Positions 29,971-46,625 of a DNA stretch of 64,000 nt are shown piece by piece. The position numbers and the translations under genes are program-made. Within the stretch, counting starts at the first letter, position 1. Every line of letters starts with the position of its first letter. Under the pieces are notes generated by a model, which did no database searches, was not told the origin of the DNA, and saw only the letters and a program-made list of their open reading frames with translations. The DNA is from Escherichia coli (GTDB taxonomy: Bacteria > Pseudomonadota > Gammaproteobacteria > Enterobacterales > Enterobacteriaceae), in assembly GCF_003018235.1 (NCBI RefSeq), contig NZ_CP027437.1; one strand, 5' to 3'.

Positions 29971-30984
29971 CGTTTTTCCCTTATAATTACAGACGCGCAC
30001 TAGCTGTGCTGGGTTAGCAATAATCCAACATTTTAATCCTGATTATGTTTATAAAAGCGAACGTTTGCTTAATAACTAACGTAAGTGGACCAGTTCTTCT
30101 GAGCGAACTTAAATGGAGTAGCGATAGTTACTTATAATAACTTTGCCATACAAACGCCATGCTCTTGCATGCTATGTACCTTTATATATTTATCAATCTG
30201 ATACGAATCTAATAATAACCCTCATCATTAATGCAACTAATCTTATCTATATATCATGTGATATGTTCTGTAACAAGTAAAATCAACATAAAAAATTCAG
30301 CAAAATTTAATATTCGTTCAACTAGCCGTCTCACATATGACATTATTAGTCAACTGCATTTGCCACAAAATGGCTATTTCATGGAACGCAGTAATTTCTT
30401 AGTGGCTATTATCATGCTAATTCTTAGATCCCTAGCGATTATTCCTGCCTGGTTCGTCAGCTTAGGCCATGAGATTGTTACATTCCTTTTTATCCTGGAG
30501 ATATGGGGGAACGCAGGCGACGCTTTTTCATCTACATCCGTTGGTAAATATGGCTTTGGTCACTACGACTTAAACCTTCCTCAATCACAGCTATTCGCCG
30601 GGCGATACGGCAAACAAACTAAGTGAAACATCATTCTGAAAACACCAACATCAACAAGCCTCTCCAGATCGACATCAGGAGTGACCAGTTACAAGACACA
30701 AACCAAGAAACATATTTCATGATGAGAATTATGCTCAGCCTGATGGCGGGTAAACACTTATTTTCACCAAGCTCACTGAGTTAGCTTGCAAAGCTTTCTT
30801 TGTTTAGATTCTAAATAAATTTTTTATAAAACATATAGTTAGAAGAAAATCTTTAGTTTTTGAAGACCACCGCAAGTGTTCGTCTGGCTTCACATGGCAT
30901 CTGCCTCTTAGAAAAAGATCGACATATTTTGTGACACGAATTGCAAATCTGGTTTTGTTGTATGGATTGCGTGATTTTTGATCT

Positions 30985-31006
30985 GGTATAACAGGTATAA
31001 AGGTGC
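30985..31006. promoter_or_regulatory. NanR operator (GGTATA direct repeats) in the nanC promoter region
   Basis: ctGGTATAacaGGTATAaaGGTGca is a GGTATA-repeat operator like that of the nan regulon. It lies in the 1.45-kb fimB-nanC divergent intergenic region. Confidence 0.6.
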
Positions 31007-33265: not shown

Positions 33266-33329
33266 CGCTTCAGGGTCCCAGTAAAGGGGCCCTGCTATCA
33301 ATTTGTCATTTGTATTACGCGAAAATTAT

Positions 33330-34310
33330 ATGAACGCAATAATATCGCCCGATTATTACTATGTTCTTACCGTTGCTGGTCAGTCTAATGCCATGGCGTA
33401 TGGCGAAGGACTGCCATTACCGGACAGGGAAGATGCGCCTCATCCCAGAATTAAACAATTAGCGAGATTTGCGCATACGCATCCCGGAGGCCCGTCATGT
33501 CACTTTAACGACATTATTCCACTGACTCACTGCCCACACGATGTTCAGGATATGCAGGGTTATCACCATCCTCTGGCAACGAATCATCAAACACAGTACG
33601 GCACCGTTGGCCAGGCACTGCATATTGCACGGAAATTACTGCCCTTTATTCCTGATAACGCAGGGGTTCTCATCGTTCCGTGTTGCCGTGGCGGATCGGC
33701 TTTTACCGCGGGCAGCGAAGGGAAATATTCAGAACGGCACGGAGCCAGCCATGATGCTTGTCGTTGGGGAACGGATACTCCGCTATACCAGGATTTAGTC
33801 AGCAGAACGCGAGCCGCACTGGCAAAAAATCCGCAGAACAAATTCCTCGGCGTATGCTGGATGCAAGGCGAATTTGACTTAATGACCAGTGACTACGCGT
33901 CACACCCTCAACACTTTAATCATATGGTTGAAGCCTTTCGTAGGGAGCTAAAACAATACCATTCTCAGCTTAATAATATTACTGACGCACCGTGGTTTTG
34001 CGGCGATACCACCTGGTACTGGAAAGAAAATTTCCCTCATGCGTATGAAGCTATTTATGGCAATTATCAAAATAATGTTTTAGCCAATATTATTTTCGTC
34101 GACTTCCAGCAACAAGGTGCAAGAGGACTGACGAACGCGCCTGATGAAGATCCAGACGATTTAAGCACGGGATATTACGGTTCAGCGTACCGGTCACCGG
34201 AGAACTGGACGACGGCACTGCGAAGCAGTCATTTCAGCGCGGCAGCCCGTCGGGGGATTATTTCTGACAGGTTTGTAGAAGCAATTTTGCAGTTTTGGCG
34301 CGAAAGGTGA
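33330..34310 (+). CDS. nanS: 9-O-acetyl-N-acetylneuraminate esterase
   Basis: 326 aa from MNAIISPDYYYVLTVAGQSNAMAYG (SGNH-like GQSN motif). Confidence 0.8.
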   Translation: MNAIISPDYYYVLTVAGQSNAMAYGEGLPLPDREDAPHPRIKQLARFAHTHPGGPSCHFNDIIPLTHCPHDVQDMQGYHHPLATNHQTQYGTVGQALHIARKLLPFIPDNAGVLIVPCCRGGSAFTAGSEGKYSERHGASHDACRWGTDTPLYQDLVSRTRAALAKNPQNKFLGVCWMQGEFDLMTSDYASHPQHFNHMVEAFRRELKQYHSQLNNITDAPWFCGDTTWYWKENFPHAYEAIYGNYQNNVLANIIFVDFQQQGARGLTNAPDEDPDDLSTGYYGSAYRSPENWTTALRSSHFSAAARRGIISDRFVEAILQFWRER

Positions 34311-34317
34311 GCGTTCA

Positions 34318-34518
34318 TTAATTTGATTTATTTGCATCCATTAGCGCTTTTAACTGCTCCGGCGTAAACGGTGGTTTGCGTCGGTGCAACATCGCATGGC
34401 AATTAGGGCACACAGGAAGCAAATCATTAACTGGATCCAGCTGGTAATCCTCTTTAATGGCTGAAAGCGGCACCAGGTGATGCACATTAAGCAATTTCAG
34501 AACCGCATGCTCATACAT
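34318..34518 (-). pseudogene. HNH-motif remnant ORF (66 aa), probably the C-terminal fragment of a degraded gene
   Basis: CPNCHAMLH HNH-like motif. Short ORF directly downstream of the 202-aa ORF on the same strand. Confidence 0.4.
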
Positions 34519-34577
34519 ATTTCCCCCTAAGTTTGCTCACTGCCTTTAATTTATGTCACAGGCAATGTAATTCACCT

Positions 34578-34649
34578 GAAGCTCATCTTGAATCTGTCCT
34601 TCTACTTAGTCATTACCCTACTGGCACAACCGACCTCAAGATGAGCTTC
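34578..34649. repeat. Perfect 14-bp inverted repeat GAAGCTCATCTTGA / TCAAGATGAGCTTC separated by 44 bp
   Basis: Direct reading of the sequence. Lies between the 202-aa ORF stop and the HNH remnant. Confidence 0.7.
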
Positions 34650-34655
34650 TTACTT

Positions 34656-35264
34656 TTAACGATGTATCAGAACAATCTTGCGCCGGGAGAATAGCGTTTC
34701 CGCAGACAGCTGGAATTTATATTCCGCGGCCTTCAGCTTTCGCGATTTAAGCATTTTCATCGTGATACCCCTTATTTTCCCTGACTCAACCTGTCTCTTG
34801 ATTTCGCCGGTGCTCAGCATGAGCTGCTTTTGCAAAATCGACAGCAGGCTGACCTGAAACGAACGGGAAATCCTGACGCTAACCTTGACCCATTTGCCGG
34901 GAGAAAGGCTGGCTAACCACTGCTCCTGAATGCGAAAATCAGGCCGACCCGATAGCTCTGCGTTGTTCCGCTTCAGCATCGCGATATCACAGGAAAAATG
35001 TTGAACCGTGGCTGCATCGTTGCTCATCAGCCGGTTATGAAGTTCGCGGTCAATTTTGCTGACGTGCAGGCGCGAAAATAGGGAGATATTCCAGGTGTAA
35101 TCACAGTGTGTGCATTTATAGATACTCCACACGTCCAGCACCTTCTTTTGCGAATTAATCCGAAATGCACCTGATGGCGTGAAGTCCCGTTTAATGTTGC
35201 ATGAAGGGCATCGCTTCGCAATGCGCTGATACCCCACGGGCGTGACGGTCCATGTAACTTTCAT
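34656..35264 (-). CDS. Hypothetical Cys-rich (zinc-finger-like) protein
   Basis: 202-aa ORF with CPSCN...CTHCDYTW motifs. No confident family assignment. Confidence 0.45.
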   Translation of the reverse strand: MKVTWTVTPVGYQRIAKRCPSCNIKRDFTPSGAFRINSQKKVLDVWSIYKCTHCDYTWNISLFSRLHVSKIDRELHNRLMSNDAATVQHFSCDIAMLKRNNAELSGRPDFRIQEQWLASLSPGKWVKVSVRISRSFQVSLLSILQKQLMLSTGEIKRQVESGKIRGITMKMLKSRKLKAAEYKFQLSAETLFSRRKIVLIHR

Positions 35265-35559
35265 AACCTACCTTTTTTAACCCATACAAAACCGGATCCG
35301 TACTGAACGGACCATGGATGTTTATGTATGAAAAATATTTAAGAGATATTTTTCAGAGGGTTAAAAAAAGATTTCCAACTATGCAATCCTGTCGGTGAGC
35401 AAAGAGATATAGCGAGACTATCAAAACGGCAATTATTGGGTATATGAGTTCAATCAATATTCATGATGGTTATGGCTTGTTCTATTGATCTGACACATTA
35501 AACACGGCGCATTAATTTTGTATGTTTTATGAACAACCCAACAACAAAAGGAGCGCGAT

Positions 35560-35811
35560 ATGACACAGCACGAACGGTTTTGTCAGGCCTGCGGAATGCC
35601 GATGTCCGCACCTGATGCGCAGGGGAGTAGCGATAAATACTGTGCATACTGCAGCGATAGCAACGGCAATCTTAAACCCTGGGAAGAGGCGGTATCAGGC
35701 TTGGCCAGCTTCCTTGATTCCTGGCAAAAAGTCGGTCCAGAAGAAGCACAGAAGCGTGCAAAACGTTATCTGACGGCAATGCCTGCCTGGGCTCATAAAG
35801 CGGACGAGTGA
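35560..35811 (+). CDS. Small zinc-ribbon protein (hypothetical)
   Basis: 83-aa ORF with CQACGMP...CAYCSD (CxxC-N-CxxC). Confidence 0.45.
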   Translation: MTQHERFCQACGMPMSAPDAQGSSDKYCAYCSDSNGNLKPWEEAVSGLASFLDSWQKVGPEEAQKRAKRYLTAMPAWAHKADE

Positions 35812-35875
35812 ATAACAAAGTCAGGGTGATTTAGGCAGTCTATCTTCACTCCGCTGATTCCATTAAGGAGAGCCG

Positions 35876-36268
35876 ATGTTTTCTCACATTATGCTTGGAA
35901 CCAACAACCTGCCACGCGCCATTGCATTCTACGATCCGTTGATGGATATGCTGGGGTATCCCCGCGGCGGCAGGAAGAGGAGATCGCATGGTGGGGCGTT
36001 TTCAACGGTAATAACACTACGGCACTGGGTATCAGTAGGCCATTTGATAAACAGGTTGCCACGACCCGAAATGGAGTGATGGTCGCCCTGATTGCGCGTT
36101 CTGCCGAACACATCCAGCAAGTTTCATGTGCTAGCTTTAAATCACGGTGGCACTGACGAGGGAGCACCTGGCCAGCGTCCGCATTACGGCGAAGGGTTCT
36201 ACAGCGCTTACGTCAGAGACACCGATGGCAACAAGCTGGCTTACGTTTATTACACCGCACAATCCTGA
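35876..36268 (+). pseudogene. VOC/glyoxalase-family gene disrupted by frameshifts
   Basis: The N-terminal part MFSHIMLGTNNLPRAIAFYDPLMDMLGYPR is in one frame. The middle (EEEIAWWGVFNGNNTTALGISRPFDKQVATTRNGVMVALIARSAEHIQQV) and C-terminal (HVLALNHGGTDEGAPGQRPHYGEGFYSAYVRDTDGNKLAYVYYTAQS) parts are recovered only by shifting frame. Confidence 0.6.
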
Positions 36269-36512
36269 GAACGATAAAGCGGGGGCCTCAGCGCCCCCAC
36301 CTGAAACTAAACCGATCCCGCAGATGTCAATGAGCGTTGAACGAGTTGATAAATGCCGAGATGTCTGACTGTTTTTACGCCAGAACTCCATGGTGTGACA
36401 ACCATACACATACTCCCTTCTTGACACCTTTAAACCATTTAACCGCATGCCTCTGTCTGCCCTGCAGGGACGGCTGATGCCTGTGTGTTGTCTGGCGGTA
36501 AGGAACAATACT

Positions 36513-36674
36513 ATGTACGCAAAATCCTTTATCGCTCTCGACGGGAATGGTCGTCTGACCGGTGCCCGTACTGCGCAGACCGCCCCTTACGATCGTTATA
36601 CCTGCCACCTCTGCGGTAGCGTGCTGCAATACCATCCTGAATACATCACCGAACGCCCGTGCTTTGAACAGTAA
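36513..36674 (+). CDS. Small hypothetical protein (53 aa)
   Basis: ATG preceded by AGGA. Contains CHLCGS. No family recognised. Confidence 0.3.
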   Translation: MYAKSFIALDGNGRLTGARTAQTAPYDRYTCHLCGSVLQYHPEYITERPCFEQ

Positions 36675-37266
36675 CCAACACACTGACAGAGGGCGGCGAA
36701 AATGCTTTATGCAAATCTTGATGCAAAGGCAGCCAGACGAATTCGTAAGTTACGCTTTTACGTGGCAGATACTCAAAGCAGACTGGCATTGTAGCGACGA
36801 TTGCCACGGTGAACGCTATTGTATGGCATGTAGTACCTGAGACTTCAGCCGCCCAGTAGATATAGCATCATGAAAAAACTGAAATGCTTTCTTGCCAACA
36901 ACTCACTGAGCTAGTATGCCTCCACCGATGTAACAATTAGAGCAAGCGTCAAAGTGCGAAACTGCCCTCACGTAGCTGCAAGTTAACACCAGGAAATCCT
37001 GGTTCAAACACGACCAGCTCTATGTTAGCGGCAAGCAATCGTTGAACTAAACGCATATGCAGCCGGAGATGAAAGTTAGGAAAAAAGCAGAGGCTGATAA
37101 GAATTATGCACGTTGAGCTGGGATCGTAATACCCCACTTAAAATGTACAAGGGGAGTAGTCTAATGATGTTAAATACGAACCTTCAGTATTGTTCATTCA
37201 CCAATTTTCCCATATTCTCTCATCATTAATATTCTCTGCCGAATTTTATAGGGCTAACTCGCTGAA

Positions 37267-37473
37267 ATGAATGACAAAGCTTTAACCTTGAAAGATGTGG
37301 TGGCTTACTTAAAGTTGGCAGAAAAAACAGCGTATAGGTTGACTAGCGAAGGCAAATTGCCGGGATTTAAGGTTGAAGGCTCATGACGCTTCAAACGAGA
37401 GGATTTAGATATGTGGATTGAAGGTCAGAAGACTCAAAGCTACCCGAGTATCACAAAATCCAATCGTGGTTGA
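37267..37473 (+). pseudogene. AlpA/excisionase-type helix-turn-helix regulator gene interrupted by an in-frame TGA
   Basis: MNDKALTLKDVVAYLKLAEKTAYRLTSEGKLPGFKVEGS-stop-RFKREDLDMWIEGQ. The stop at 37384-37386 sits where this family has a conserved Trp (TGG). Confidence 0.6.
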
Positions 37474-37666
37474 TCAAGTGGATAAACATGAAAAGTCGGT
37501 AGCCCTCAAAGGCCACTTGCCACATGCAGTGAAGCAAGCCGTTGTGCAAGCTCTACTGAAAGAAGGTGATATCGCCCGAACGTTGCTCAAGGATCCACAA
37601 GTTATGGCAAGTTATGTTGAGCTGATTTTCGACATGATGAAGCAGAATAAAAATATGAATATCTAA
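37418..37666 (+). CDS. Hypothetical small ORF (TTG start), overlapping the HTH remnant out of frame
   Basis: 82-aa ORF from the track. Non-ATG start and no recognisable motifs. Confidence 0.25.
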   Translation: MKVRRLKATRVSQNPIVVDQVDKHEKSVALKGHLPHAVKQAVVQALLKEGDIARTLLKDPQVMASYVELIFDMMKQNKNMNI

Positions 37667-37708
37667 AAGATTTTGGGCTATCTATTACGTTTTAAAATGA
37701 GATAAATA

Positions 37709-40246
37709 ATGATAAATGACCATGAAGAACTAGAACTTGCTAAAGCTCAGGCAAAAGAAATATGGAAGATCCTTGATTATGTTCGAGGAGCATCACCTAT
37801 ATCTAATTATCGCTCATTAGCGTATTCAATCTTCTTCGTACGCTATCTTCAATCCAATACAGGTCAGCATTTTGAGGCAGAAAGGTTCGACTCTTTTAAT
37901 GTCATCGCCCAGTATTCCTACGATCTTGTAAACTATGCCGTTCAACTTGGATTGATTCATAGCGACGTATCTAAATTCTTAATTTATTATTTAGAAAACA
38001 CACTCCGTTCATTTGTCAATATTGATGAGTCTTTTGTTCGTTATGCAATTAGAGATGGTCTACTCAATAAAACCCCTGCAATAGCGTCGCTTTCTTTATC
38101 AGAACTGGATTTACTTTTTGCCGAGAATGAAGGTAAGTCAGGAGGTGAGTTTTATACCCCTAGAGACGTCAACTTATTGGTTAAAATATTAGGATTGAGT
38201 TATCAACCAAAGTCAATATGTGACCCATTTGCAGGTGCTGGAAACACAGCATTTCCTTTTGCCAATACTGGTATTGAAAAAGTTAGGATTGATACTCAAG
38301 AAATTAATAGAGATGCTTACTTTAAACTAGTAATAAGTAGAGTCATCAGGAAAATAGAAGGTCGAGACTATTTCGGCGATTCCCTATCACAACCATTATA
38401 TCAAGAAAATAAATATGATCTGATAGTTTCTTTCCCACCTTTTGGCATGAAAATTCCTAAAGCCACTCGAAATAATATTTACTATAAAACAAGTAATAAG
38501 TGGCTGGATATTACTGAAATCTTGCCAGAAAGTAGAAGTGATTGGTTTATAACATTATCAATGCTTCCAGCCCTTTCTGAGGGGGGTAAGATACTAGTAG
38601 GTATGTCACTTGGGGCTTTGACAAGAGCAGGCTCTGAGGCAAAGGTTCGTGAGTATTTAGTCTCTCGCGGAATTATCGAACAAGTAATTCTTTTACCTAA
38701 AAATATTTATTACTCTACGGCTATCTCAACTGTACTTCTTGTCCTCAACTCAGGAACAAGTAACATAAATAACAGAAGTATTAAATTTGTAGATGCTTCA
38801 CTGTTTTACGAGCCTGCCCGTGGTCGAAACACCCTCACAACAAAAAATATAAATGAGATCGTAGAGGCTTGTCATAAAGATGGCCGATTTAGTATTAGTT
38901 CATCTCATACCCAAATAGCAAACAGAGACTTTAATTTAGATCCGTCTCTTTATGTACGTAAAGATCTCAAAATCAGTGAGGTTTCTTTAAAAAATTTTAG
39001 AGGATACTCTGACTTTAAAGTTTCGATACATCCTTCTTTAAATGTATTGGTTGGTGAGAACGGCGTCGGGAAAACTTCGATATTAGAAGCATTAGCATGT
39101 GGCCTTGGTCCTTTCCTTACTGCTATGCCTGATGCTAAAGGAAAACTGATAAAAAAATCAGATATCCATATAAGTTCAAAAGGAATCGCAAATTATGCTC
39201 GAATATCGATTGAAACAACATCAAGTTTAAGTTGGGATCTTGTGGCAAAGGGGGTTGATGTTTCCGAGCCCCCTAAGATAGGAACATCAGCATTAACTAG
39301 CTACGCTACTCATCTTGTAGATAGTCAGTCTGAATATCCACTCATTGCTTATTATGGGACTAACCGTGCTCTTACTTCTACCAGTTCTAAAGTTGCAATA
39401 AATCCATTCGAGAAAGAAAATCGTGGGGAAGGTTATGACTTTGCTTTAGATGCTAAAGTTAACTACGGCATCTTAAAGAACTGGTTTTCAAAAATAGAGG
39501 TTGATGAGCTTCGAAAACGTGATGAACTAAAAGACCATAAATTCATTCATCCGGCTAAGAGACTTGTTTCAGAGGCTGTTTACCAGATTGTTGATCGAGC
39601 TACATGCTTGGAGTTCGACAAAAATAGTAACGATGTTATGGTTCATTGGAAAAATGAGCAGGGAGAGTGCGTAAAGCTTACATTGGAACAACTAAGTGAA
39701 GGGTATAGAAATATGGTATCCCTGACCATTGACCTAGTGAGGCGTGCTTATTTACTTAATCCTACCAAACCGAAACCGCTAACAGTTAATGGGATCGTTT
39801 TAATTGATGAAATTGAACTTCACTTGCACCCTAGATGGCAGCAAAAGATTTTAAATGATCTTACTAAGCTGTTTAAGAATATTCAGTTTATTGTCACGAC
39901 ACATAGTCCTCAAGTCTTAACAACAATCAAAGCCGATTGTATCCGTATTGTTTCCGTCAATGCTAACGAAGCAAAATTAGTGACAGGAACTACTACTTAC
40001 GGTTCTGAAAGCTCAAGAATGTTGGAAGATGTTTTAGGTGGTAACAATCGCGCCCAACATCTTGATATTGTTAAAAAACTAAACCGTTATACAGAGTTAG
40101 TAGAGGCCGACAAATGGGATACCGATGAGGCATTAGAACTCAAAAAAGAGTTATATAAATGGGGTGGTCAGACAGAAGACGAGCTTCAAAAATTAGAAAC
40201 TGATATTCGAATTCGCGAGTTCGAGCGTGGCAATGAAAAAGATTAA
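37709..40246 (+). CDS. Fusion protein: N-terminal HsdM-like N6-adenine DNA methyltransferase domain plus C-terminal ABC/AAA_21-type ATPase domain (PtuA-like)
   Basis: 845-aa ORF. Methyltransferase motifs GGEFYTPRDV, ICDPFAGAGNTAF (motif I) and DLIVSFPPFG (motif IV region). ATPase motifs: Walker A VLVGENGVGKTS, signature-like LSEGYRNMVSL, Walker B VLIDEIELHLHP, H-loop FIVTTHSP. Confidence 0.75.
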   Translation: MINDHEELELAKAQAKEIWKILDYVRGASPISNYRSLAYSIFFVRYLQSNTGQHFEAERFDSFNVIAQYSYDLVNYAVQLGLIHSDVSKFLIYYLENTLRSFVNIDESFVRYAIRDGLLNKTPAIASLSLSELDLLFAENEGKSGGEFYTPRDVNLLVKILGLSYQPKSICDPFAGAGNTAFPFANTGIEKVRIDTQEINRDAYFKLVISRVIRKIEGRDYFGDSLSQPLYQENKYDLIVSFPPFGMKIPKATRNNIYYKTSNKWLDITEILPESRSDWFITLSMLPALSEGGKILVGMSLGALTRAGSEAKVREYLVSRGIIEQVILLPKNIYYSTAISTVLLVLNSGTSNINNRSIKFVDASLFYEPARGRNTLTTKNINEIVEACHKDGRFSISSSHTQIANRDFNLDPSLYVRKDLKISEVSLKNFRGYSDFKVSIHPSLNVLVGENGVGKTSILEALACGLGPFLTAMPDAKGKLIKKSDIHISSKGIANYARISIETTSSLSWDLVAKGVDVSEPPKIGTSALTSYATHLVDSQSEYPLIAYYGTNRALTSTSSKVAINPFEKENRGEGYDFALDAKVNYGILKNWFSKIEVDELRKRDELKDHKFIHPAKRLVSEAVYQIVDRATCLEFDKNSNDVMVHWKNEQGECVKLTLEQLSEGYRNMVSLTIDLVRRAYLLNPTKPKPLTVNGIVLIDEIELHLHPRWQQKILNDLTKLFKNIQFIVTTHSPQVLTTIKADCIRIVSVNANEAKLVTGTTTYGSESSRMLEDVLGGNNRAQHLDIVKKLNRYTELVEADKWDTDEALELKKELYKWGGQTEDELQKLETDIRIREFERGNEKD

Positions 40247-41021
40247 TAAGCTAGATGAGCCAAATCGGCTTGGTGTGTTCAAGGCTACTCATCCTAATGC
40301 TTTGTGGGAGAGGGATAAAAACTCAATTGAAGAGGCTTTCCGTTGTTGCATTGCCAGATATCAAGAAACTCTACAACAATTACGTACGGACCAAGGTAAT
40401 TTATGTGCATATTGTGAACAGGATTTAATGTCTGGAACTAATGGGGCATTAGATGACTGCCGTATTGAGCATTTTCATCCGAAATCTAAACGTGAACAGG
40501 GAGAACCTAATTGGGCTTTGGAATGGAGCAATTTGTTAGTTGTTTGCTGTGGCGGAAATCAAAGTAAAGTTGTTAATCCTGGGCAAAGATTTGATGCTGA
40601 TCCCAAAAATTACTCTTGCGATGTACCAAAGAGTGACAAAATTTTAGATACCATTATATTAAATCCACTTAATTTACCTGAATTAAATATCTGGAAGTTT
40701 CATCGTTCTTCGGGGCAAATTTCCGTAAATGAAGATTCCTGTTTAGAATTTGGTATAAGTGTTGAAATGGCACACCAAACAATTAAAGAATTGAATTTAA
40801 ATTCCCCTCGATTAATTAGATTTCGAAAGGCTATTCTAAATAATCTCAACATTTTAATAACAGAAAGGCTGAAGAAGGGACAAACGGTAGAGCAAGCTGT
40901 TAGATTTATTGCCATATCACTCTTTAGAAAAAATGGAGCAGGTGATTGGCCCTCTTTTTTTAGTGCAACACGATATTATTTAGGTCAGCAGGCTGAGCTT
41001 GTTTTAGCCCAACCTATTTAA
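40233..41021 (+). CDS. HNH endonuclease (PtuB/TIGR02646-like), translationally coupled to the upstream fusion gene
   Basis: 262 aa from MKKINKLDEP. HNH motifs CAYCE, CRIEHFHPKS, NLLVVCCGGN. Its start overlaps the 3' end of the upstream gene by 14 nt. Confidence 0.7.
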   Translation: MKKINKLDEPNRLGVFKATHPNALWERDKNSIEEAFRCCIARYQETLQQLRTDQGNLCAYCEQDLMSGTNGALDDCRIEHFHPKSKREQGEPNWALEWSNLLVVCCGGNQSKVVNPGQRFDADPKNYSCDVPKSDKILDTIILNPLNLPELNIWKFHRSSGQISVNEDSCLEFGISVEMAHQTIKELNLNSPRLIRFRKAILNNLNILITERLKKGQTVEQAVRFIAISLFRKNGAGDWPSFFSATRYYLGQQAELVLAQPI

Positions 41022-41040
41022 CATACTTTCAACTAGTTAG

Positions 41041-41063
41041 AGAGGCTGCTTTTGGCAGCCTCT
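41041..41063. terminator. Hairpin between convergent genes (AGAGGCTGC-TTTTG-GCAGCCTCT), likely bidirectional terminator
   Basis: Perfect 9-bp stem with a 5-nt loop in the 60-bp gap between the 3' ends of the convergent genes. Confidence 0.55.
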
Positions 41064-41081
41064 TGCAGAGTGCAGAATCGA

Positions 41082-42515
41082 CTACAGGGGCGATGCTAGC
41101 TCAGAGAACCAAGCGTGAACTGATCTGTAAAATGTGCTGATTGACCAAAACTCACTGCATGCAGCAACTAACAGAATGACCACTAAGAGGATCACTACAG
41201 TAGAAGTCATTCTTTCCACACGGCAGTATGATCCCATCGCATCTTTTACAGGTTGTCTAGCCAGTTCCTGATAATCCAGCTCATCCAGAAATCCGTATAA
41301 TTTAGTTCTCCAGGTGGTTCTAACTCTTTCAAGTAATGAAATTGTTTGCCTATTAATATAGACAGACATTCCATAGGAAATAACTATATAAACCGCGATA
41401 GCACAAAAAACCAAAGCGTAAATATTTTGCAAACCAACTGATTTTACTGCATCCAGACTGTAGCGAATAACCAAGACACTAATTACAAGAGCCATATCTT
41501 TCCATAAGGAAGAGGACAAATCTCGGGATTGCTGAATGATCTTTTGTGTATCTTCAGCCAGCGTTTTCCGCAAATCACCCAAGGATTTCATAGTATCTTT
41601 ACCACCAGTCCTGATATGGGCCTTATACATTAACCGTGCAGACTCCAAAGCTGATGAGAGTCGAAGCATCACTCCCTCACAAAAGTTCAGGTCTGAAGGC
41701 CACTCTCTAGCCAGCTCGCTGGACAAAAACGTATGTTTCAGCTCAGTTTCATTCCCCTCTAGAAAAATCCACTTTGCCGCTTCCTGGATAATATCAAAAG
41801 CAGGTAACGCTGCCGTCTCATCGCCGAATGCTATTTTTCTGGGAGGCTTTCCCGCAAGCCCCACCATCATTTCGTCAGCAAAAAAAAGTTCATTTGCAAA
41901 ACATTTCAGCAACTCTCGGCATCCTAGCAATTTCCATATCTTGATTGCTTCATCAGTCTTCTCACTACAAGTTTCAAGTATCCAAGGGGCAATGGCATCT
42001 GGAGGAAGAAAAGTTGTTGAATAACATTTGATGATACTTTTTGTTACTGAAGGCTTAGTGATAGCTGTTGCATCACCAGCACTCACCGGCTGTATCTCCT
42101 TCCATGGATGCACATACCAACTTATTGTCTGAAAGCCTTCAGTAATAAACAGCCCATAAATATGTTTGTACCGACAGAGTTTGCTATCTTGAAGTAAAAA
42201 AGTGCGCCATCCTTCTAAGGTAAAAAGCCTCAGTATCCCCGGAATTTCATTATAAGTGATGGTAATGTAGTGCTTCTGCCCTGGGACCCCCTCTCTCGGA
42301 TGAATAACATCTCTGCTCTCATCGATAAAAACGATCTTGAGATCTTCCGCATGTACATCCACTATTTCTCCCCATAAATCAAGGGATTCACTATCCATTG
42401 TGGCGGAAATAAAAAGCTTATGGATAGACACCTGCTGGTCCTCTGTGATCACAAGGTCAGATAAATGTCGTGAGTGGCATATAGCCTTACCGATTTTTTC
42501 CAATATCGATATCAT
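41082..42515 (-). CDS. Hypothetical protein with two C-terminal transmembrane helices (membrane-anchored), second gene of a two-gene cassette
   Basis: 477-aa ORF. Hydrophobic stretches LVISVLVIRYSL...IYALVFCAIAVYIVISYGMSVYI and TSTVVILLVVILLVAACSEFW. No recognisable catalytic motif. Confidence 0.5.
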   Translation of the reverse strand: MISILEKIGKAICHSRHLSDLVITEDQQVSIHKLFISATMDSESLDLWGEIVDVHAEDLKIVFIDESRDVIHPREGVPGQKHYITITYNEIPGILRLFTLEGWRTFLLQDSKLCRYKHIYGLFITEGFQTISWYVHPWKEIQPVSAGDATAITKPSVTKSIIKCYSTTFLPPDAIAPWILETCSEKTDEAIKIWKLLGCRELLKCFANELFFADEMMVGLAGKPPRKIAFGDETAALPAFDIIQEAAKWIFLEGNETELKHTFLSSELAREWPSDLNFCEGVMLRLSSALESARLMYKAHIRTGGKDTMKSLGDLRKTLAEDTQKIIQQSRDLSSSLWKDMALVISVLVIRYSLDAVKSVGLQNIYALVFCAIAVYIVISYGMSVYINRQTISLLERVRTTWRTKLYGFLDELDYQELARQPVKDAMGSYCRVERMTSTVVILLVVILLVAACSEFWSISTFYRSVHAWFSELASPL

Positions 42516-43548
42516 CTGTTACCAATCCTGCAGTCACAATTACAATTCGTTTTCGCCCGTCTTCCATATTTTCTACTTCTGGTGCATTGTCTTCATCGTA
42601 GATAATGATTACATCTTCCAATGTTTCCAGTTTTCTCTTCCGGGGCTTCTGAATGTTATCGGGAATGATGCGGAAAGATTCACCTGAAATTCCTAAATCC
42701 TTTATTTTACGAAAAAAATACTTAACCAGAGGGTGTTCTTCCTCCAAAGGACCAAAAATCTGGGTCAACAATGGCAGTGCTTCATCAGTATTAAAATCCT
42801 GTTCGCCATGGCGTAAAGTTTCATAAATTTTGTTTACTCCGCTGCGCTTGATCTCTTCAGGTAGTAAGTTTCGATGCTTTTTATATACATCTTTTAATAC
42901 AGTAACTAGCTTATCGCTGAGCTGAGTTGGGTCATTGACGCGCTTAACCTGTAGAAATCGTTCAAAATAGACAGAGATGTTAGTACGTTTGCTGCGATCT
43001 CGTACGACAACTAATCCGCCCGGCAAATCTTCATTCAGCCGTACCAGTGCGATTTTCTGCATGGCTTCGGCTTTTTTAACGAAACTTTCGCGAAAGCGTT
43101 CGAGTTTAGGTACCTGAAACTCATCTCCTTCAACATCCAGCACATAACGGACTACATCTTCATTGTCATACTTAATCAACGCATACAGTTTCTCATCGTT
43201 GAGTGTATGAAGTTCAAAAAGGAAAAAAACGCCCATACTGGCATTCTTGGTATGGTGGTGAGACTGAAAATCGCTTGCCAATAAGGAGGATTGCTCAGTA
43301 AAGCAGCCGATATCGGTGTCTGCATGTTCCCTGATGATCCTCAGGATTCGCTCTGTATTTGACAACTCCTTAAAATGAAACATATTGCCACTAACTGCAG
43401 ATTTGATACGTTCCAGAAAGAAATCAACATGCTCCGGAGGGGAAATTTCGCTGAGTAAAACAGGGACTTCCAACTCACCGCCAACCACATGAAAAATCAT
43501 CCTTTTTATTGATAATGCATTGATTTCTTCATCCGTTAAAAAACTCAT
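42487..43548 (-). CDS. Hypothetical cytoplasmic protein (353 aa), first gene of the two-gene cassette; weak NdpA/YejK-like resemblance at most
   Basis: ATG start confirmed. Overlaps the downstream ORF by 29 nt. Acidic C-terminus. No confident domain assignment. Confidence 0.5.
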   Translation of the reverse strand: MSFLTDEEINALSIKRMIFHVVGGELEVPVLLSEISPPEHVDFFLERIKSAVSGNMFHFKELSNTERILRIIREHADTDIGCFTEQSSLLASDFQSHHHTKNASMGVFFLFELHTLNDEKLYALIKYDNEDVVRYVLDVEGDEFQVPKLERFRESFVKKAEAMQKIALVRLNEDLPGGLVVVRDRSKRTNISVYFERFLQVKRVNDPTQLSDKLVTVLKDVYKKHRNLLPEEIKRSGVNKIYETLRHGEQDFNTDEALPLLTQIFGPLEEEHPLVKYFFRKIKDLGISGESFRIIPDNIQKPRKRKLETLEDVIIIYDEDNAPEVENMEDGRKRIVIVTAGLVTDDIDIGKNR

Positions 43549-43744
43549 TTTTATTTCTCAATATAGTGTTTATATTTACTACCGTGAGCCATCTTACCTA
43601 AGCGTAGAACGTGGCGGAAAACACGATAACATTATTGCATAGCTTACGGCGTAACTTATCCTCGCCCCAGACAGAATAAACGTCAAAATAAAATAATGAA
43701 AATATGATCGAGACAGCATTAGCTGCCCCGCTTTCTTAGACTTT

Positions 43745-44998
43745 TTACATTATTAGGGCAAAATCAAACGGACTCACCCCCTTCTCCCGATTCGCATCCA
43801 GATAATTTGCCCACCACTGCAGCATCAACCTACGCTCCCCAAGATGTTCCGCCTTATGGATGTATGCCGCCCGCACAGAGCTACGCTCCTGATGGCTCAT
43901 CTGCCGCTCCACTGCATTCCTCGACCACAATCCTGATTCAATAAGTGAACTACAGGCCATCGTCCTGAAACCATGCCCACAGACTTCCGTTTTGGTGTCA
44001 TAGCCCATAACTCGCAAAGCCTTGTTCACCGTATTCTCACTCATCGGCTTATGCGGATCGTGATCGCCCACAAAAATCAGCTCTCGATTTCCATTCATGC
44101 TTTTGATCTTTTCCAAAATAGCTAAGGCCTGCCGCGATAAGGGTACAAGATGGGGAGTTCGCATCTTCGAACCACGCTGAGAATGTTTAACACCGTCCAA
44201 CGGTTCACGCTCACCGGGGATCGTCCACATGGCCGTTTCAAAATCCACTTCTGACCAACGGGCAAAGCGCAGTTCGCTTGAACGGATGAAAACTAACAAA
44301 GTGAGTTCGACAGCCAGTCGAGTTAACGGCCTGCCGGAGTAATGATCAATGCGGTGAAGTAATTCAGGTATGCGGTTAAGCTCCAGAGCCGCACGATGCT
44401 GTCTTTTAGCAGTAGCAACCGCACCGGTAATCTCTTGCGCGGGGTTGTAGTCGATTAAGCCGCTCTGAACGGCAAAGCGCATAATCGCGGTAGTTCGCTG
44501 CTGTAAACGGGCGGCGACTTCAAGACGTCCGGATGACTCCACCGCTTTAATGGGTACAAGAAGATCCCGAGTCTTAAGCTCTGCAATGTTCCGCTTACCG
44601 ATAGCAGCAAAGAGATTATCTTCTAGGCTTTTCAATACACGAGCACTATGCGATGCAGACCACTTCTGATTACTGGCATGCCAGTCTCTGACGACCACTT
44701 CAAACGTTATCGCCTCTTGCTCCTGTTCTACCTTAACCGCTTTCTTGTTTTCACTGGGATCGACGCCGTTCGCTAAAAGCTTACGCGCTTCGTCTCGCCG
44801 CGATCGAGCATCAGCTAACGAAACTTCAGGATACTTCCCTAGCGCCAGCATCTTCTCTTTACCACCGAAACGATAACGAAGCCGCCAGTATTTGGAGCCG
44901 TTAGGGTGAACCAGCAAAACCATGCCTTCACCATCAGTAAGTTTATAGGCTTTTGCTTCAGGCTTTGCCGAACGAACCTTCACATCACTCAGAGCCAT
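43745..44998 (-). CDS. int: P4-family tyrosine integrase
   Basis: 417 aa from MALSDVKVRSAKPEAKAYKLTDGEGMVLLVHPNGSKYWRLRYRFGGKEKMLALGKYP (P4-type integrase N-terminus). Catalytic region HGFRTMA...Y. Lies directly beside the tRNA-Leu 3' end. Confidence 0.9.
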   Translation of the reverse strand: MALSDVKVRSAKPEAKAYKLTDGEGMVLLVHPNGSKYWRLRYRFGGKEKMLALGKYPEVSLADARSRRDEARKLLANGVDPSENKKAVKVEQEQEAITFEVVVRDWHASNQKWSASHSARVLKSLEDNLFAAIGKRNIAELKTRDLLVPIKAVESSGRLEVAARLQQRTTAIMRFAVQSGLIDYNPAQEITGAVATAKRQHRAALELNRIPELLHRIDHYSGRPLTRLAVELTLLVFIRSSELRFARWSEVDFETAMWTIPGEREPLDGVKHSQRGSKMRTPHLVPLSRQALAILEKIKSMNGNRELIFVGDHDPHKPMSENTVNKALRVMGYDTKTEVCGHGFRTMACSSLIESGLWSRNAVERQMSHQERSSVRAAYIHKAEHLGERRLMLQWWANYLDANREKGVSPFDFALIM

Positions 44999-45196
44999 GA
45001 TGAATATCCTTTCAAGGGTTCTGTGTGGGTACAAACATTATCGAACCGGGATATACCCGCAGTTGTACCCGCATCAGTAAGTTGATGTAGATTGAATCAG
45101 GTTGACTTAGGTTGAGTGAAAAAGCGAGGAAAGCCTTGCGGATACTGGATTTCAGGCATAAAAAAAGACCTCAGTTGAGGTCTATTTACATACTTA

Positions 45197-45281
45197 TGGT
45201 GCCGAAGGCCGGACTCGAACCGGCACGTATTTCTACGGTTGATTTTGAATCAACTGCGTCTACCGATTTCGCCACTTCGGC
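45197..45281 (-). tRNA. leuX: tRNA-Leu (anticodon CAA)
   Basis: The minus-strand sequence reads GCCGAAGTGGCGAAATCGGTAGACGCAGTTGATTCAAAATCAACCGTAGAAATACGTGCCGGTTCGAGTCCGGCCTTCGGCACCA (85 nt), with a CAA anticodon loop and a CCA end. Confidence 0.9.
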
Positions 45282-45476: not shown

Positions 45477-46496
45477 ATGTCGATGATAAAAAGCTATGCT
45501 GCAAAAGAAGCGGGCGGCGAACTGGAAGTTTATGAGTACGATCCCGGTGAACTGAAGCCACAAGATGTTGAAGTGCAGGTGGATTACTGCGGGATCTGTC
45601 ATTCCGATCTGTCAATGATCGATAACGAATGGGGATTTTCACAATATCCACTGGTTGCCGGGCATGAGGTGATTGGTCGCGTAGTGGCGCTCGGGAGTGC
45701 CGCGCAGGATAAAGGTTTGCAGGTCGGTCAGCGTGTCGGGATTGGCTGGACGGCACGCAGCTGCGGGCATTGCGATGCCTGTATTAGCGGTAATCAGATC
45801 AACTGCGAGCAAGGTGCGGTGCCGACGATTATGAATCGCGGTGGCTTTGCCGAGAAGTTGCGTGCGGACTGGCAATGGGTGATTCCACTGCCAGAAAATA
45901 TCGACATTGAATCTGCCGGACCGCTGTTGTGCGGCGGTATCACGGTCTTTAAACCGCTGTTGATGCACCATATCACTGCCACCAGCCGCGTTGGGGTAAT
46001 TGGTATTGGCGGGCTGGGGCATATAGCTATAAAACTTCTGCACGCAATGGGATGCGAGGTGACAGCCTTTAGTTCTAATCCGGCGAAAGAGCAGGAAGTG
46101 CTGGCGATGGGTGCCGATAAAGTGGTGAATAGCCGCGATCCACAGGCACTGAAAGCACTGGCGGGGCAGTTTGATCTCATTATCAACACCGTCAACGTCA
46201 GCCTCGACTGGCAGCCTTATTTTGAGGCGCTGACGTATGGCGGTAATTTCCACACCGTCGGTGCGGTTCTCACGCCGTTGCCGGTTCCGGCCTTTACGCT
46301 GATTGCGGGCGATCGCAGTGTCTCTGGCTCTGCTACCGGCACGCCCTATGAGTTGCGTAAGCTGATGCGCTTTGCCGCCCGCAGCAAGGTTGCGCCGACC
46401 ACCGAACTGTTCCCGATGTCGAAAATTAACGACGCCATCCAGCATGTGCGCGACGGTAAGGCGTGTTACCGCGTGGTTCTGAAAGCCGACTTCTGA
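45477..46496 (+). CDS. ahr: NADPH-dependent aldehyde reductase (zinc-type alcohol dehydrogenase)
   Basis: 339 aa from [14 protein letters not shown]. Zn-ADH motifs GHEVIGRV and GIGGLGH. Confidence 0.85.
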
Positions 46497-46625
46497 TCCC
46501 TTTGCCGGGTGCCTGTCGCCCGGCGTTTAAATCTCTTTGGAAGGCGTCTCGCAATCTGCTGAATTTAGCGGTGAAGAGTGCGCAGCCGTTGCCTATACTC
46601 CAGGCAGGAAACTGGAGGATATCTC

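What the first reader, a model, noticed from the sequence alone, without database searches (positions are those of the whole stretch)
34311..45281. Integrase island of about 11 kb at the leuX tRNA in place of the large K-12 prophage-like element, carrying decayed genes and the candidate defence cargo
A P4-type integrase lies directly beside the 3' end of tRNA-Leu(CAA). Between it and nanS are two intact cassettes (37.7-43.5 kb), a stop-interrupted excisionase-like HTH gene, a frameshifted VOC-family gene, an HNH remnant and small Cys-rich ORFs. In K-12 this tRNA anchors the much larger KpLE2 element, so this strain has a different and compact cargo at the same hotspot. The island looks AT-rich by eye (not computed). 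I could not locate a direct repeat of the tRNA 3' end marking the distal boundary.
Basis: partly seen in the sequence, partly recalled or inferred. Interest (0 to 1): 0.6.

Follow-up and report, generated by a model that had tools for sequence, protein, structure and literature searches.

The report
Truncated leuX defence island remnant
This is a rare 10.9-kb leftover of a larger mobile island at the well-known leuX tRNA hotspot of E. coli: it can probably no longer excise, and it carries two intact candidate anti-phage gene pairs, one of them an undescribed variant of the Septu system.

Summary
A full-length P4-type integrase (43745-44998, -) lies 198 nt from the 3' end of tRNA-Leu(CAA) (45197-45281, -). 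Homology to K-12 stops at the nanS stop codon (34313). K-12 has about 40 kb in this interval; the window has 10.9 kb.

The cargo is accessory: 2 of 5,426 complete E. coli genomes carry it. The locus is the published E. coli defence hotspot #37, so the island as a kind is already known.

New points:
1. It is a remnant. In strain PapM-32-1 the same module is the tRNA-proximal 10.7 kb of a ~23.6-kb island that ends in a 22/23-nt copy of the leuX 3' end. The window has no such copy. Its left edge is an in-frame fusion of a YbaK-like gene start to an HNH gene end, at 34485-34487.
2. It is mosaic. There is a crossover inside the integrase gene, and a 3.65-kb block is 95.5% identical to a Klebsiella leuX island.
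3. Cassette 1 is a Septu-like PtuA/PtuB pair. Its PtuA carries an HsdM-like domain with the catalytic motif changed from NPPF to FPPF. Relatives usually sit directly after a type I restriction operon; here that operon is missing.
4. Cassette 2 has the architecture of Type II PANGU (nucleoid-protein sensor plus membrane effector).

No anti-phage activity was tested.

The parts
45197..45281 (-). leuX, tRNA-Leu(CAA). Its 3'-terminal 23 nt (45197-45219 on the + strand, TGGTGCCGAAGGCCGGACTCGAA) are the inferred attachment core.
   Evidence: ARAGORN and Rfam. The core was defined from the 22/23-nt second copy in PapM-32-1, at L004 ~30976-30998.
45035..45196 (.). Spacer between the integrase gene and the tRNA. 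It contains the hairpin-plus-T-run terminator of leuX at about 45160-45185.
   Evidence: Sequence read. The same spacer plus core is duplicated beside the degenerate second integrase of PapM-32-1.
43745..44998 (-). P4-type tyrosine integrase, 417 aa, apparently intact. The gene is mosaic, with a crossover at about 44000.
   Evidence: Pfam Arm-DNA-bind_3, Phage_int_M and Phage_integrase; NCBIfam PRK09692; PHROG 1. Identity to PapM-32-1 is 99-100% up to ~43980 and then 88%.
42487..43548 (-). YejK-like nucleoid-associated protein (NA37 family), 353 aa. Candidate Pag2A-like sensor.
   Evidence: Pfam NA37, E 1.5e-12, over residues 20-337. Homologues co-occur with the partner gene in Alpha-, Beta- and Gammaproteobacteria.
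41082..42515 (-). 477-aa partner protein: a soluble alpha/beta N-terminal domain, long helices and C-terminal membrane helices. Candidate Pag2B-like effector. It overlaps the NA37 gene by 29 nt.
   Evidence: No Pfam, PADLOC, NCBIfam or PDB match. Hydrophobic segments at 357-388 and 431-463. AlphaFold model with pLDDT 84.6. The same 29-nt overlap occurs in Citrobacter.
40227..41021 (+). PtuB-type HNH endonuclease, 262-264 aa.
   Evidence: PADLOC PtuB, E 2e-100. NCBIfam PtuB and TIGR02646, the latter above its curated cut-off.
37709..40246 (+). 845-aa fusion of an HsdM-like domain (residues 137-418, motif IV FPPF) with a PtuA ABC-type ATPase (residues 420-843).
   Evidence: Pfam N6_Mtase plus AAA_23, AAA_15 and AAA_21. 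PADLOC PtuA, E 5e-106. PDB: Septu PtuA 8ee4 and EcoR124 HsdM 7bst. Motif analysis. Invariant Walker A, Walker B, signature and H-loop residues.
37441..37666 (+). 3' remnant of a 146-aa gene that in Klebsiella lies between hsdR and the fusion gene. Position 37441 is the left breakpoint of the block shared with Klebsiella.
   Evidence: blastn to L007 starts at 37441. Translations compared.
37267..37440 (+). HTH_17 ('excisionase family') gene with a nonsense codon at 37384-37386.
   Evidence: Translation. Pfam HTH_17, E 9e-16, after repairing the codon.
35876..36840 (+). Two pseudogenes: a frameshifted VOC-family gene (35876-36268) and a frameshifted zinc-ribbon gene (36514-36840).
   Evidence: Translations. 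NCBI annotation of the 99%-identical PapM-32-1 locus. In CFSAN018748 an ISEc31 element interrupts the VOC gene.
34656..35811 (.). Intact DUF1062 gene (34656-35264, -) and an 83-aa zinc-ribbon gene (35560-35811, +). The latter is 83% identical to the yjhY region of K-12 KpLE2.
   Evidence: Annotations. blastn to K-12.
34314..34518 (-). Deletion/fusion junction. The 66-aa ORF (34318-34518) joins the first 11 codons of a YbaK/EbsC-like gene to the last 55 codons of the HNH gene that flanks nanS. The junction is at 34485-34487, with a shared CAT.
   Evidence: Left of 34487 matches the full-length HNH gene of strain ECO8855 (L005). Right of 34482 matches the start of the YbaK-like gene of PapM-32-1 (L004). 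PHROG HNH hits on residues 8-56.

Best explanation
The region is the fixed, tRNA-proximal remnant of a P4-type-integrase genomic island in the leuX defence hotspot of E. coli (hotspot #37).

Inferred history:
1. An island integrated by site-specific recombination into the last 23 nt of leuX. This is inferred from the tandem array in PapM-32-1, which keeps the duplicated core.
2. Its cargo was then reshuffled by homologous and illegitimate recombination rather than by fresh integration. One crossover lies inside the integrase gene at about 44000. A 3.65-kb Septu-like block (37441-41087) is shared at 95.5% with a Klebsiella leuX island and has a sharp breakpoint inside a neighbouring gene.
3. 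A deletion then fused a YbaK-like gene to the HNH gene beside nanS. This removed the distal half of the island together with its attachment-site copy.

The integrase gene looks intact but has no second site to recombine with, so the element should be immobile by excision.

What remains functional are two two-gene cassettes.

(a) A Septu-like PtuA ATPase / PtuB HNH nuclease pair. Its PtuA carries an N-terminal HsdM-like domain that keeps the S-adenosylmethionine pocket but has lost the catalytic Asn. I infer that this domain is a sensor or docking module rather than an enzyme. It might report on type I restriction complexes, on anti-restriction proteins, or on SAM, and so license the nuclease.

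(b) A YejK-like nucleoid protein plus a membrane protein with the architecture of Type II PANGU. In that system the nucleoid protein is reported to leave the degraded chromosome during infection and to activate its partner, aborting the infection.

Shown here: anatomy, distribution, junctions, mosaicism, domain content and motif states. Inferred: the order of events, immobility, and both defence mechanisms.
For: Position and accessory nature:
- The cargo 37200-43740 occurs in 2 of 5,426 complete E. coli genomes.
- K-12 has about 40 kb of different content here.
- The locus is described as hotspot #37, anchored by leuX and an arm-type integrase (PMC12707154, PMC10121019).

Remnant status:
- PapM-32-1 carries the same module (99.6% identical from 34482 to ~44000) as the proximal part of an island whose far end is a 22/23-nt copy of the leuX 3' end. 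That copy is preceded by the same spacer and lies next to a degenerate second integrase.
- The window has no such copy.
- The junction at 34485-34487 joins two truncated genes in frame.
- The HNH piece is common flank, present in 2,480 genomes.

Mosaicism:
- Identity to PapM-32-1 drops from >99% to 88% inside the integrase gene.
- The Klebsiella block runs 37441-41087 at 95.5%.
- Only the 3' part of the 146-aa gene is retained.

Cassette 1:
- PADLOC PtuA 5e-106 and PtuB 2e-100.
- PDB matches to Septu PtuA and EcoR124 HsdM.
- FPPF replaces NPPF/Y in all but 2 of 63 family members checked (those two read LPPF and IPPL); none keeps Asn/Asp/Ser. Motif I and the motif II acidic residue are conserved.
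- A type I hsdMSR operon lies upstream in 6 of 9 distinct contexts, directly abutting the fusion gene in most and overlapping its start in three.

Cassette 2:
- NA37 domain.
- A conserved overlapping pair across three proteobacterial classes, next to P4-type integrases at tRNA-Phe and next to CBASS and AbiJ.
- The architecture matches Pag2A/Pag2B.
Against: - The ancestor cannot have been the PapM-32-1 arrangement itself. PapM-32-1 keeps less of the HNH gene (up to the equivalent of 34423) than the window does (34487). The 'deletion' is therefore inferred from the gene-fusion signature, not from a directly observed parent.
- An intact integrase could still act on a secondary site that I did not recognise.
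- Neither cassette matched its family at curated thresholds. NCBIfam PtuA scores 329 bits against a cut-off of 500, and PtuB 127 against 150.
- I could not compare cassette 2 with the tested PANGU sequences, because they are not available in the held text.
- The N-terminal domain of the 477-aa protein is only mildly acidic (pI 5.6), whereas the paper describes a highly acidic DNA mimic.
- The cassette-1 relatives in Aeromonas and Serratia also lack a nearby type I system. Dependence on a restriction partner is therefore not obligatory.
- No function was tested.
Confidence: 0.8

Rival explanations
1. A complete island that is still mobile. Its distal attachment site would be too short or too diverged to recognise, and the integrase could excise the 10.9 kb as a unit.
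For: The integrase has all domains and catalytic residues. Attachment cores of some islands are short.
Against: - No copy of the tRNA 3' end exists in the window even at relaxed stringency, and no other flanking direct repeat was found.
- The left edge is a fusion of two truncated genes.
- The related island in PapM-32-1 continues 13 kb further before reaching its clear 22/23-nt repeat.
Confidence: 0.06
2. The left junction arose by illegitimate insertion or recombination of an already short module into the HNH gene. On this view the lineage never held the distal half, and nothing larger was deleted.
For: PapM-32-1 cannot be the direct parent, because it keeps a shorter HNH fragment. The locus shows other recombinational breakpoints at 37441 and ~44000.
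Against: The module's left end lies 11 codons into a YbaK-like gene that is complete in PapM-32-1, so the module was cut from a longer element in any case. The 3-nt microhomology fits either process.
Confidence: 0.12
3. A decayed P4-like phage satellite whose defence hotspot survived.
For: The integrase is P4-type. P4-like satellites are reported at hotspot #37.
Against: PHROG, Pfam and NCBIfam searches of all island ORFs found no primase/helicase (alpha), psu, delta, sid, or any other phage or satellite gene apart from the integrase. The extended island in PapM-32-1 has CP4-type content (CbtA/YeeU, RadC, antirestriction, DUF932, YfjJ), not P4 content.
Confidence: 0.03
4. Cassette 1 is a self-contained restriction-modification-like system. 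The N-terminal domain would be an active adenine methyltransferase that marks host DNA, and PtuA/PtuB would cut unmarked DNA.
For: - The AdoMet-binding motif I (DPFAGxG) and the motif II acidic residue are invariant.
- The domain aligns with EcoR124 HsdM at E 3e-29.
- The pair occurs without a nearby type I system in three contexts (and the window).
Against: - Motif IV lacks the Asn/Asp/Ser that contacts the target adenine, in all 63 family members checked.
- There is no HsdM_N domain and no specificity subunit in the cassette.
- In most relatives a complete type I system with its own HsdM sits directly upstream.
Confidence: 0.12

Closest known systems
E. coli defence hotspot #37 at leuX (Hochhauser et al. 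2023, PMC10121019; EcoSal Plus 2025, PMC12707154), including K-12 KpLE2 and the tandem array of strain PapM-32-1
   Same: - The same chromosomal slot between leuX/ahr and nanS.
- The same arm-type (P4-type) integrase at the tRNA end.
- Defence systems as cargo, with replacement of cargo between strains.
   Different: - The cargo combination is rare (2 of 5,426 complete genomes).
- It is compact (10.9 kb).
- It lacks the distal attachment-site copy and all the CP4-type backbone genes that the fuller version in PapM-32-1 keeps.
Septu (PtuA/PtuB) and the PtuAB effectors of type I-A retrons (Ec78/Eco7, Ec83/Eco4)
   Same: - An ABC-type ATPase with conserved Walker A, Walker B, signature and H-loop motifs.
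- It is followed by an overlapping HNH nuclease gene.
- Strong profile and PDB matches.
   Different: - A 420-residue N-terminal extension containing an HsdM-like domain with FPPF in place of NPPF.
- No reverse transcriptase or msr/msd RNA.
- The family usually sits at the end of type I restriction operons. I found no description of this fusion in the paper library.
Guards and decoys built on type I restriction: PrrC with EcoprrI, and Ronin (HsdM/HsdS plus RonA; bioRxiv 10.1101/2023.04.06.535777)
   Same: - A toxic effector is physically or genetically coupled to type I restriction parts.
- Ronin works independently of methyltransferase catalysis, and is likewise found next to DUF4102-type integrases (Pfam Arm-DNA-bind_3 was formerly named DUF4102; from memory) and BREX in E. 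coli.
   Different: - Here the HsdM-like part is fused to the effector's ATPase and is apparently catalytically dead by sequence.
- The effector is PtuAB, not an anticodon nuclease or a small membrane peptide.
- The guard function is only a hypothesis.
Type II PANGU (Pag2A nucleoid-associated sensor plus Pag2B membrane effector; bioRxiv 10.64898/2026.04.06.716658)
   Same: - A two-gene operon: a YejK-like NA37 protein followed by a protein with a soluble N-terminal domain and C-terminal membrane helices.
- Location in defence neighbourhoods.
- A tested example came from E. coli.
   Different: - Sequence relatedness to the tested system could not be checked.
- The N-terminal domain here is only mildly acidic.
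- In Enterobacteriaceae this pair sits directly beside P4-type integrases at tRNA-Leu and tRNA-Phe.

Membership tests
tRNA-anchored integrase genomic island | Tyrosine integrase gene directly beside the 3' end of a tRNA gene | tested here: met
   The integrase is 43745-44998 (-) and the tRNA 3' end is at 45197.
tRNA-anchored integrase genomic island | Direct repeat of the tRNA 3' end at the distal boundary | tested here: not met
   None is present in 64 kb at relaxed stringency. It is present in the fuller relative PapM-32-1 at L004 ~30976-30998.
tRNA-anchored integrase genomic island | Accessory, patchy distribution within the species | tested here: met
   The cargo is in 2 of 5,426 complete genomes. 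Alternative cargo sits at the same site in others.
tRNA-anchored integrase genomic island | Base composition different from the flanks | tested here: met
   Met only for the two cassettes, at 37.4% and 41.4% GC against 47-49% in the flanks. The integrase and the left block are not deviant.
tRNA-anchored integrase genomic island | Functional excisionase or recombination directionality factor | tested here: not met
   The only HTH_17 gene carries a nonsense codon. The HTH gene that follows YfjJ in PapM-32-1 lies in the part missing here.
E. coli defence hotspot #37 | Located at leuX and holding defence genes | tested here: met
   Position. Defence-type cargo. Definition taken from PMC12707154.
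P4-like satellite | Satellite core genes (alpha primase-helicase, psu, delta, sid, cos) | tested here: not met
   No such hits for any island ORF in PHROGs, NCBIfam or PADLOC.
Septu (PtuAB) | PtuA ABC-type ATPase with intact nucleotide-binding motifs | tested here: met
   PADLOC E 5e-106 over residues 420-843. PDB 8ee4 aligned end to end. GENGxGKT, DE, LSxG and the H-loop are invariant. NCBIfam PtuA is below its curated cut-off, 329 against 500 bits.
Septu (PtuAB) | Adjacent PtuB HNH nuclease in the same operon | tested here: met
   PADLOC PtuB E 2e-100. TIGR02646 scores 83.6 against a cut-off of 52. The two genes overlap by 20 nt.
Septu (PtuAB) | Anti-phage activity | not testable with these tools
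   Needs plaque assays.
Type I-A retron | Reverse transcriptase and msr/msd RNA next to PtuAB | tested here: not met
   There is no RT ORF in the island. The only Rfam match is the tRNA.
Type I restriction-modification HsdM | Catalytic motif IV (N/D/S)PP(F/Y/W) | tested here: not met
   The window protein has FPPF at residues 242-245. None of the 63 family members checked keeps N, D or S at the first position: 61 read FPPF, one LPPF and one IPPL. Most of the ordinary HsdM sequences aligned alongside have NPPF or NPPY.
Type I restriction-modification HsdM | AdoMet-binding motif I | tested here: met
   DPFAGAG at residues 172-178; D172, P173, F174, A175, G176 and E198 are invariant.
Type I restriction-modification HsdM | HsdS and HsdR partners encoded alongside | tested here: not met
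   None in the island. They are present upstream in Klebsiella, Shewanella, Undibacterium, Vibrio, Pseudoalteromonas and Moritella relatives.
Type II PANGU | YejK-like nucleoid-associated protein (NA37) | tested here: met
   Pfam NA37, E 1.5e-12, nearly full length.
Type II PANGU | Two-gene operon whose partner has a soluble N-terminal domain and a C-terminal membrane domain | tested here: met
   A 29-nt overlap; hydrophobic segments at 357-388 and 431-463; the model shows an alpha/beta domain followed by long helices.
Type II PANGU | Strongly acidic, DNA-mimicking N-terminal (DMK) domain | tested here: inconclusive
   The pI of residues 1-335 is 5.6, with 47 acidic and 38 basic residues. Surface charge was not computed, and no reference structure was available.
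Type II PANGU | Sequence homology to the tested Pag2A/Pag2B | not testable with these tools
   The sequences are not in the held text and no supplements are held.

The most novel reading that the evidence does not exclude
The HsdM-like domain fused to PtuA is a catalytically dead pseudo-methyltransferase that serves as the sensor of a Septu-type nuclease. It could act in one of two ways. It could dock on, or mimic, a type I restriction complex, so that phage anti-restriction proteins (Ocr, ArdA, Stp-like) release the nuclease. Alternatively it could read the loss of S-adenosylmethionine caused by phage SAM-degrading enzymes. On this reading the family would be a third way of arming PtuAB, beside free-standing Septu and retron-guarded PtuAB, and a fused counterpart of the PrrC and Ronin guard logic.
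Probability: 0.3. Interest if true: 0.7.

Novelty: new member of a known kind. Interest (0 to 1): 0.4.

Why it matters
The island adds little on its own. leuX is already the best-occupied defence hotspot in E. coli.

It is, however, a clean worked example of how such hotspots turn over. Three breakpoints can be placed to within about 250 nt or better: a gene fusion at the left edge, a crossover inside the integrase gene, and a block shared with Klebsiella. Together they show cargo moving by recombination between islands at the same tRNA in different genera, and an island becoming fixed through loss of its far attachment site.

The more useful lead is the cargo. It is a conserved family of about 68 clusters (at 90% identity) of PtuA proteins fused to an HsdM-like domain that has lost its catalytic Asn. 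These usually sit at the end of type I restriction operons. I found no description of this family. If it guards restriction systems, it would link Septu to the decoy/guard theme with an easily testable construct.

The second cassette places a PANGU-like pair directly beside P4-type integrases at two different tRNA genes.

Tried and rejected
- Attachment-site search: I searched the whole window for copies of the leuX 3' end at several lengths and mismatch levels, and for any flanking direct repeat. Nothing was found.
- Phage and satellite genes: PHROGs found only the integrase and generic HNH or methylase families.
- Non-coding RNAs: Rfam found only the tRNA, and no retron RNA.
- The 477-aa protein: no hits in Pfam, PADLOC, NCBIfam, PDB sequences, or Foldseek against the PDB (best Foldseek E 0.027).
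- The NA37 protein against PDB sequences: nothing.
- Plasmid collection: it holds no PtuA fusion, only ordinary PtuA-like ATPases. A few plasmids carry distant NA37 pairs.
It added only one new fusion locus, Moritella L023, so the count of type I-linked contexts stays small at 6 of 9.
- PANGU reference sequences: I could not obtain them.
- Rejected idea: that the HNH fragment is cargo of this island. It is shared by 2,480 genomes that carry other cargo.

Full report
**1. What is there**

The window is E. coli chromosome. The gene order is fim, nanC, nanM, nanS (ORF 33303-34310, +), then the island, then leuX (tRNA-Leu CAA, 45197-45281, -), ahr, yjgR and lptG. Homology to K-12 runs up to 34313, the nanS stop. 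It resumes only in the integrase/leuX/ahr region, at 83% identity. K-12 has about 40 kb (KpLE2) between leuX and nanS. The window has 10,883 nt (34314-45196).

- A three-domain P4-type integrase with its catalytic residues present.
- Four intact ORFs in two cassettes.
- An HTH_17 gene with TGA in place of a Trp codon.
- Frameshifted VOC and zinc-ribbon genes.
- Intact DUF1062 and zinc-ribbon genes.
- An HNH fragment.

Island GC is 42.6% against 47.1% for the window. The deviation is confined to the cassettes, at 37.4% and 41.4% with GC3 down to 0.26.

**2. Accessory and rare, but at a known hotspot**

The whole interval is covered at 80% or more in only 2 of 5,426 complete E. coli genomes. The cargo 37200-43740 occurs in those same two genomes and nowhere else in the collection. 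They are CFSAN018748, from swine, with an extra ISEc31 in the VOC gene, and PapM-32-1, from a baboon.

Other strains hold different content at the same site. Examples are phosphorothioate-dependent restriction enzymes, McrBC, type I systems, AbiE and BREX.

The literature already names this locus defence hotspot #37. It is described as anchored by leuX and an arm-type integrase, and as occupied by defence genes in 97% of isolates (PMC12707154, PMC10121019). As a kind, the island is therefore known.

**3. It is a remnant without a distal attachment site**

No copy of the leuX 3' end exists anywhere in the 64 kb, and no other direct repeat brackets the island.

In PapM-32-1 the leuX-nanS interval is about 45 kb and is a tandem array. 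A degenerate second integrase is followed by the same integrase-tRNA spacer as in the window, and then by TGGTGC-GAAGGCCGGACTCGAA. That sequence matches 22 of the last 23 nt of leuX, after which similarity ends. This marks the far end of a ~23.6-kb tRNA-proximal island.

That island's distal half carries a restriction enzyme, CbtA/YeeU, RadC, an antirestriction protein, DUF932, a GTPase, a reverse transcriptase with a PRTase-like gene, YfjJ, an HTH gene and a YbaK-like gene. The window matches this island only from 34482 rightwards.

Left of 34487 the window matches the 3' end of an HNH gene. That gene is complete next to nanS in strain ECO8855, and part of it is present in 2,480 of 5,426 genomes. 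The two matches overlap in a shared CAT (34485-34487).

The 66-aa ORF at 34318-34518 (-) therefore fuses 11 codons of the YbaK-like gene in frame to 55 codons of the HNH gene. This is the signature of a deletion or illegitimate recombination event that removed the distal part of the island, including its attachment-site copy. CFSAN018748 has the same junction.

One caveat applies. PapM-32-1 keeps less of the HNH gene than the window does, so it is a cousin and not the parent.

**4. Mosaic structure**

Against PapM-32-1 the window is 98.4-100% identical in every 250-nt bin from 34482 to about 43980. Identity then falls to 88% across the 5' kilobase of the integrase gene and recovers at the tRNA. 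A crossover therefore lies inside the integrase gene, and this cargo has moved between integrase alleles by homologous recombination.

Separately, 37441-41087 is 95.5% identical to a Klebsiella pneumoniae island. That island is also inserted at leuX next to a P4-type integrase, although the integrases are only 67% identical in the one ~440-nt stretch that aligns. In Klebsiella this block is preceded by hsdM, hsdS, hsdR and a 146-aa gene. The window keeps only the last ~70 codons of that gene, joined to the broken HTH_17 gene.

The left block (DUF1062, zinc ribbon, VOC) has ordinary GC and an 83%-identical counterpart in K-12 KpLE2.

**5. Cassette 1: a Septu variant with a dead HsdM-like domain**

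The 845-aa protein has two parts. Residues 137-418 are N6_Mtase (Pfam 7e-42). The closest solved relative is EcoR124 HsdM (3e-29). Residues 420-843 are PtuA (PADLOC 5e-106), aligning end to end with Septu PtuA 8ee4. The next gene, overlapping by 20 nt, is PtuB (PADLOC 2e-100; TIGR02646 above its cut-off). There is no reverse transcriptase or retron RNA.

The fusion is a conserved family of about 68 clusters at 90% identity, mostly 839-852 aa. It occurs in Enterobacterales, Vibrionales, Alteromonadales, Aeromonas and Undibacterium.

Across 63 full-length members:
- Motif I (DPFAGxG) and the motif II acidic residue are kept.
- Motif IV reads FPPF in 61 members, LPPF in one and IPPL in one. None keeps Asn, Asp or Ser at the first position. 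Most of the ordinary HsdM sequences aligned alongside read NPPF or NPPY.

From established knowledge of adenine methyltransferases (recalled from memory), the first motif IV residue contacts the target amino group and is required for catalysis in EcoKI. I therefore infer a catalytically dead but SAM-binding domain.

In 6 of 9 distinct genomic contexts a complete type I operon lies upstream, directly abutting the fusion gene in most. The hsdR stop, or that of a short intervening gene, overlaps the fusion start in three of them. These contexts are Klebsiella, Shewanella, Undibacterium, Vibrio, Pseudoalteromonas and Moritella. In Aeromonas, Serratia and the window it stands alone.

I found no description of this fusion in the paper library.

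Published facts about the parts:
- Septu PtuAB is described as degrading DNA.
- Retron-Eco7 PtuAB degrades tRNA-Tyr and is held in check by the RT-msDNA complex.
- PrrC and Ronin are precedents for effectors guarded by type I restriction parts. Ronin works independently of methyltransferase catalysis and is linked to DUF4102-type integrases and to BREX in E. coli. Pfam Arm-DNA-bind_3 was formerly named DUF4102 (from memory), so these may be the same integrase type as here.

My preferred reading is that the HsdM-like domain is the sensor or regulatory module of the nuclease. This is inference only.

**6. Cassette 2: PANGU-like**

The 353-aa protein is an NA37 (YejK-like) nucleoid-associated protein.

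The 477-aa partner overlaps it by 29 nt and has no hit in any profile or structure library. It has C-terminal hydrophobic helices. A confident model (pLDDT 84.6) shows an alpha/beta N-terminal domain followed by long helices.

The two genes co-occur, adjacent and overlapping, in Gamma-, Beta- and Alphaproteobacteria:
- In Citrobacter and relatives they lie directly next to a P4-type integrase (69% identical to this one) at two different tRNA-Phe sites.
- In Bosea they lie next to AbiJ and a CBASS operon.

A 2026 preprint defines Type II PANGU as exactly this architecture: Pag2A, a nucleoid protein, plus Pag2B, with a soluble N-terminal domain and a C-terminal membrane domain. It shows protection against T4, a requirement for both genes, and relocation of the nucleoid protein on infection.

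Architecture and context match. Sequence membership could not be tested, and the N-terminal domain here is only mildly acidic.

**7. Verdict**

The best-supported account is an immobilised, recombinationally assembled remnant of a leuX island that retains two intact candidate abortive-infection cassettes.

The island is a new member of a known kind. The PtuA fusion is the only component that looks undescribed, and it deserves experimental follow-up.

Noticed in passing
window 46496-46578: ahr is followed after 82 nt by yjgR. The idnK and idnDOTR genes that lie next to ahr in K-12 are absent here, as they are in CFSAN018748 and PapM-32-1.
   Followed up: no
P0069 (Photobacterium carnosum, 849 aa): This protein combines a type I specificity-subunit domain (Methylase_S, PF01420) with a PtuA-like ATPase. 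It is a second, independent fusion of a type I restriction part to this ATPase family.
   Followed up: no
L004/L002 (E. coli PapM-32-1, NZ_CP049204.1 4183000-4229700): The leuX-nanS interval is a 45-kb tandem array. It contains BREX-1, a PLD-domain gene, AbiE, a degenerate second integrase with its own attachment-core copy, a reverse transcriptase next to a phosphoribosyltransferase-like gene, and CP4-type backbone genes.
   Followed up: partly
window 45160-45185, and L004 30940-30975: The hairpin-plus-T-run terminator of leuX lies on the island side of the tRNA. It is duplicated, together with the attachment core, beside the degenerate integrase of PapM-32-1. The islands therefore supply the tRNA's terminator.
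   Followed up: partly
window 34578-34591 and 34636-34649: A perfect 14-nt inverted repeat with a 44-nt spacer lies just downstream of the DUF1062 gene. It may be a terminator or a protein-binding site.
   Followed up: no
window 37418-37666: The remnant ORF matches the C-terminal 70 residues of PADLOC candidate PDC-S15 (E 4e-6). The 146-aa gene found between hsdR and the fusion gene in Klebsiella may therefore itself be defence-related.
   Followed up: no
L012 and L014 (Citrobacter and relatives): The same integrase, NA37 and membrane-protein trio sits at two different tRNA-Phe genes. In both cases it is followed by SrfB and virulence-factor-family genes.
   Followed up: partly
L001 (CFSAN018748) and L004 (PapM-32-1) annotations: nanS is annotated as a partial pseudogene in both relatives, and nanM and ahr as frameshifted in CFSAN018748. 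In the window the nanS ORF reads through: 326 aa from the Met at 33330.
   Followed up: no
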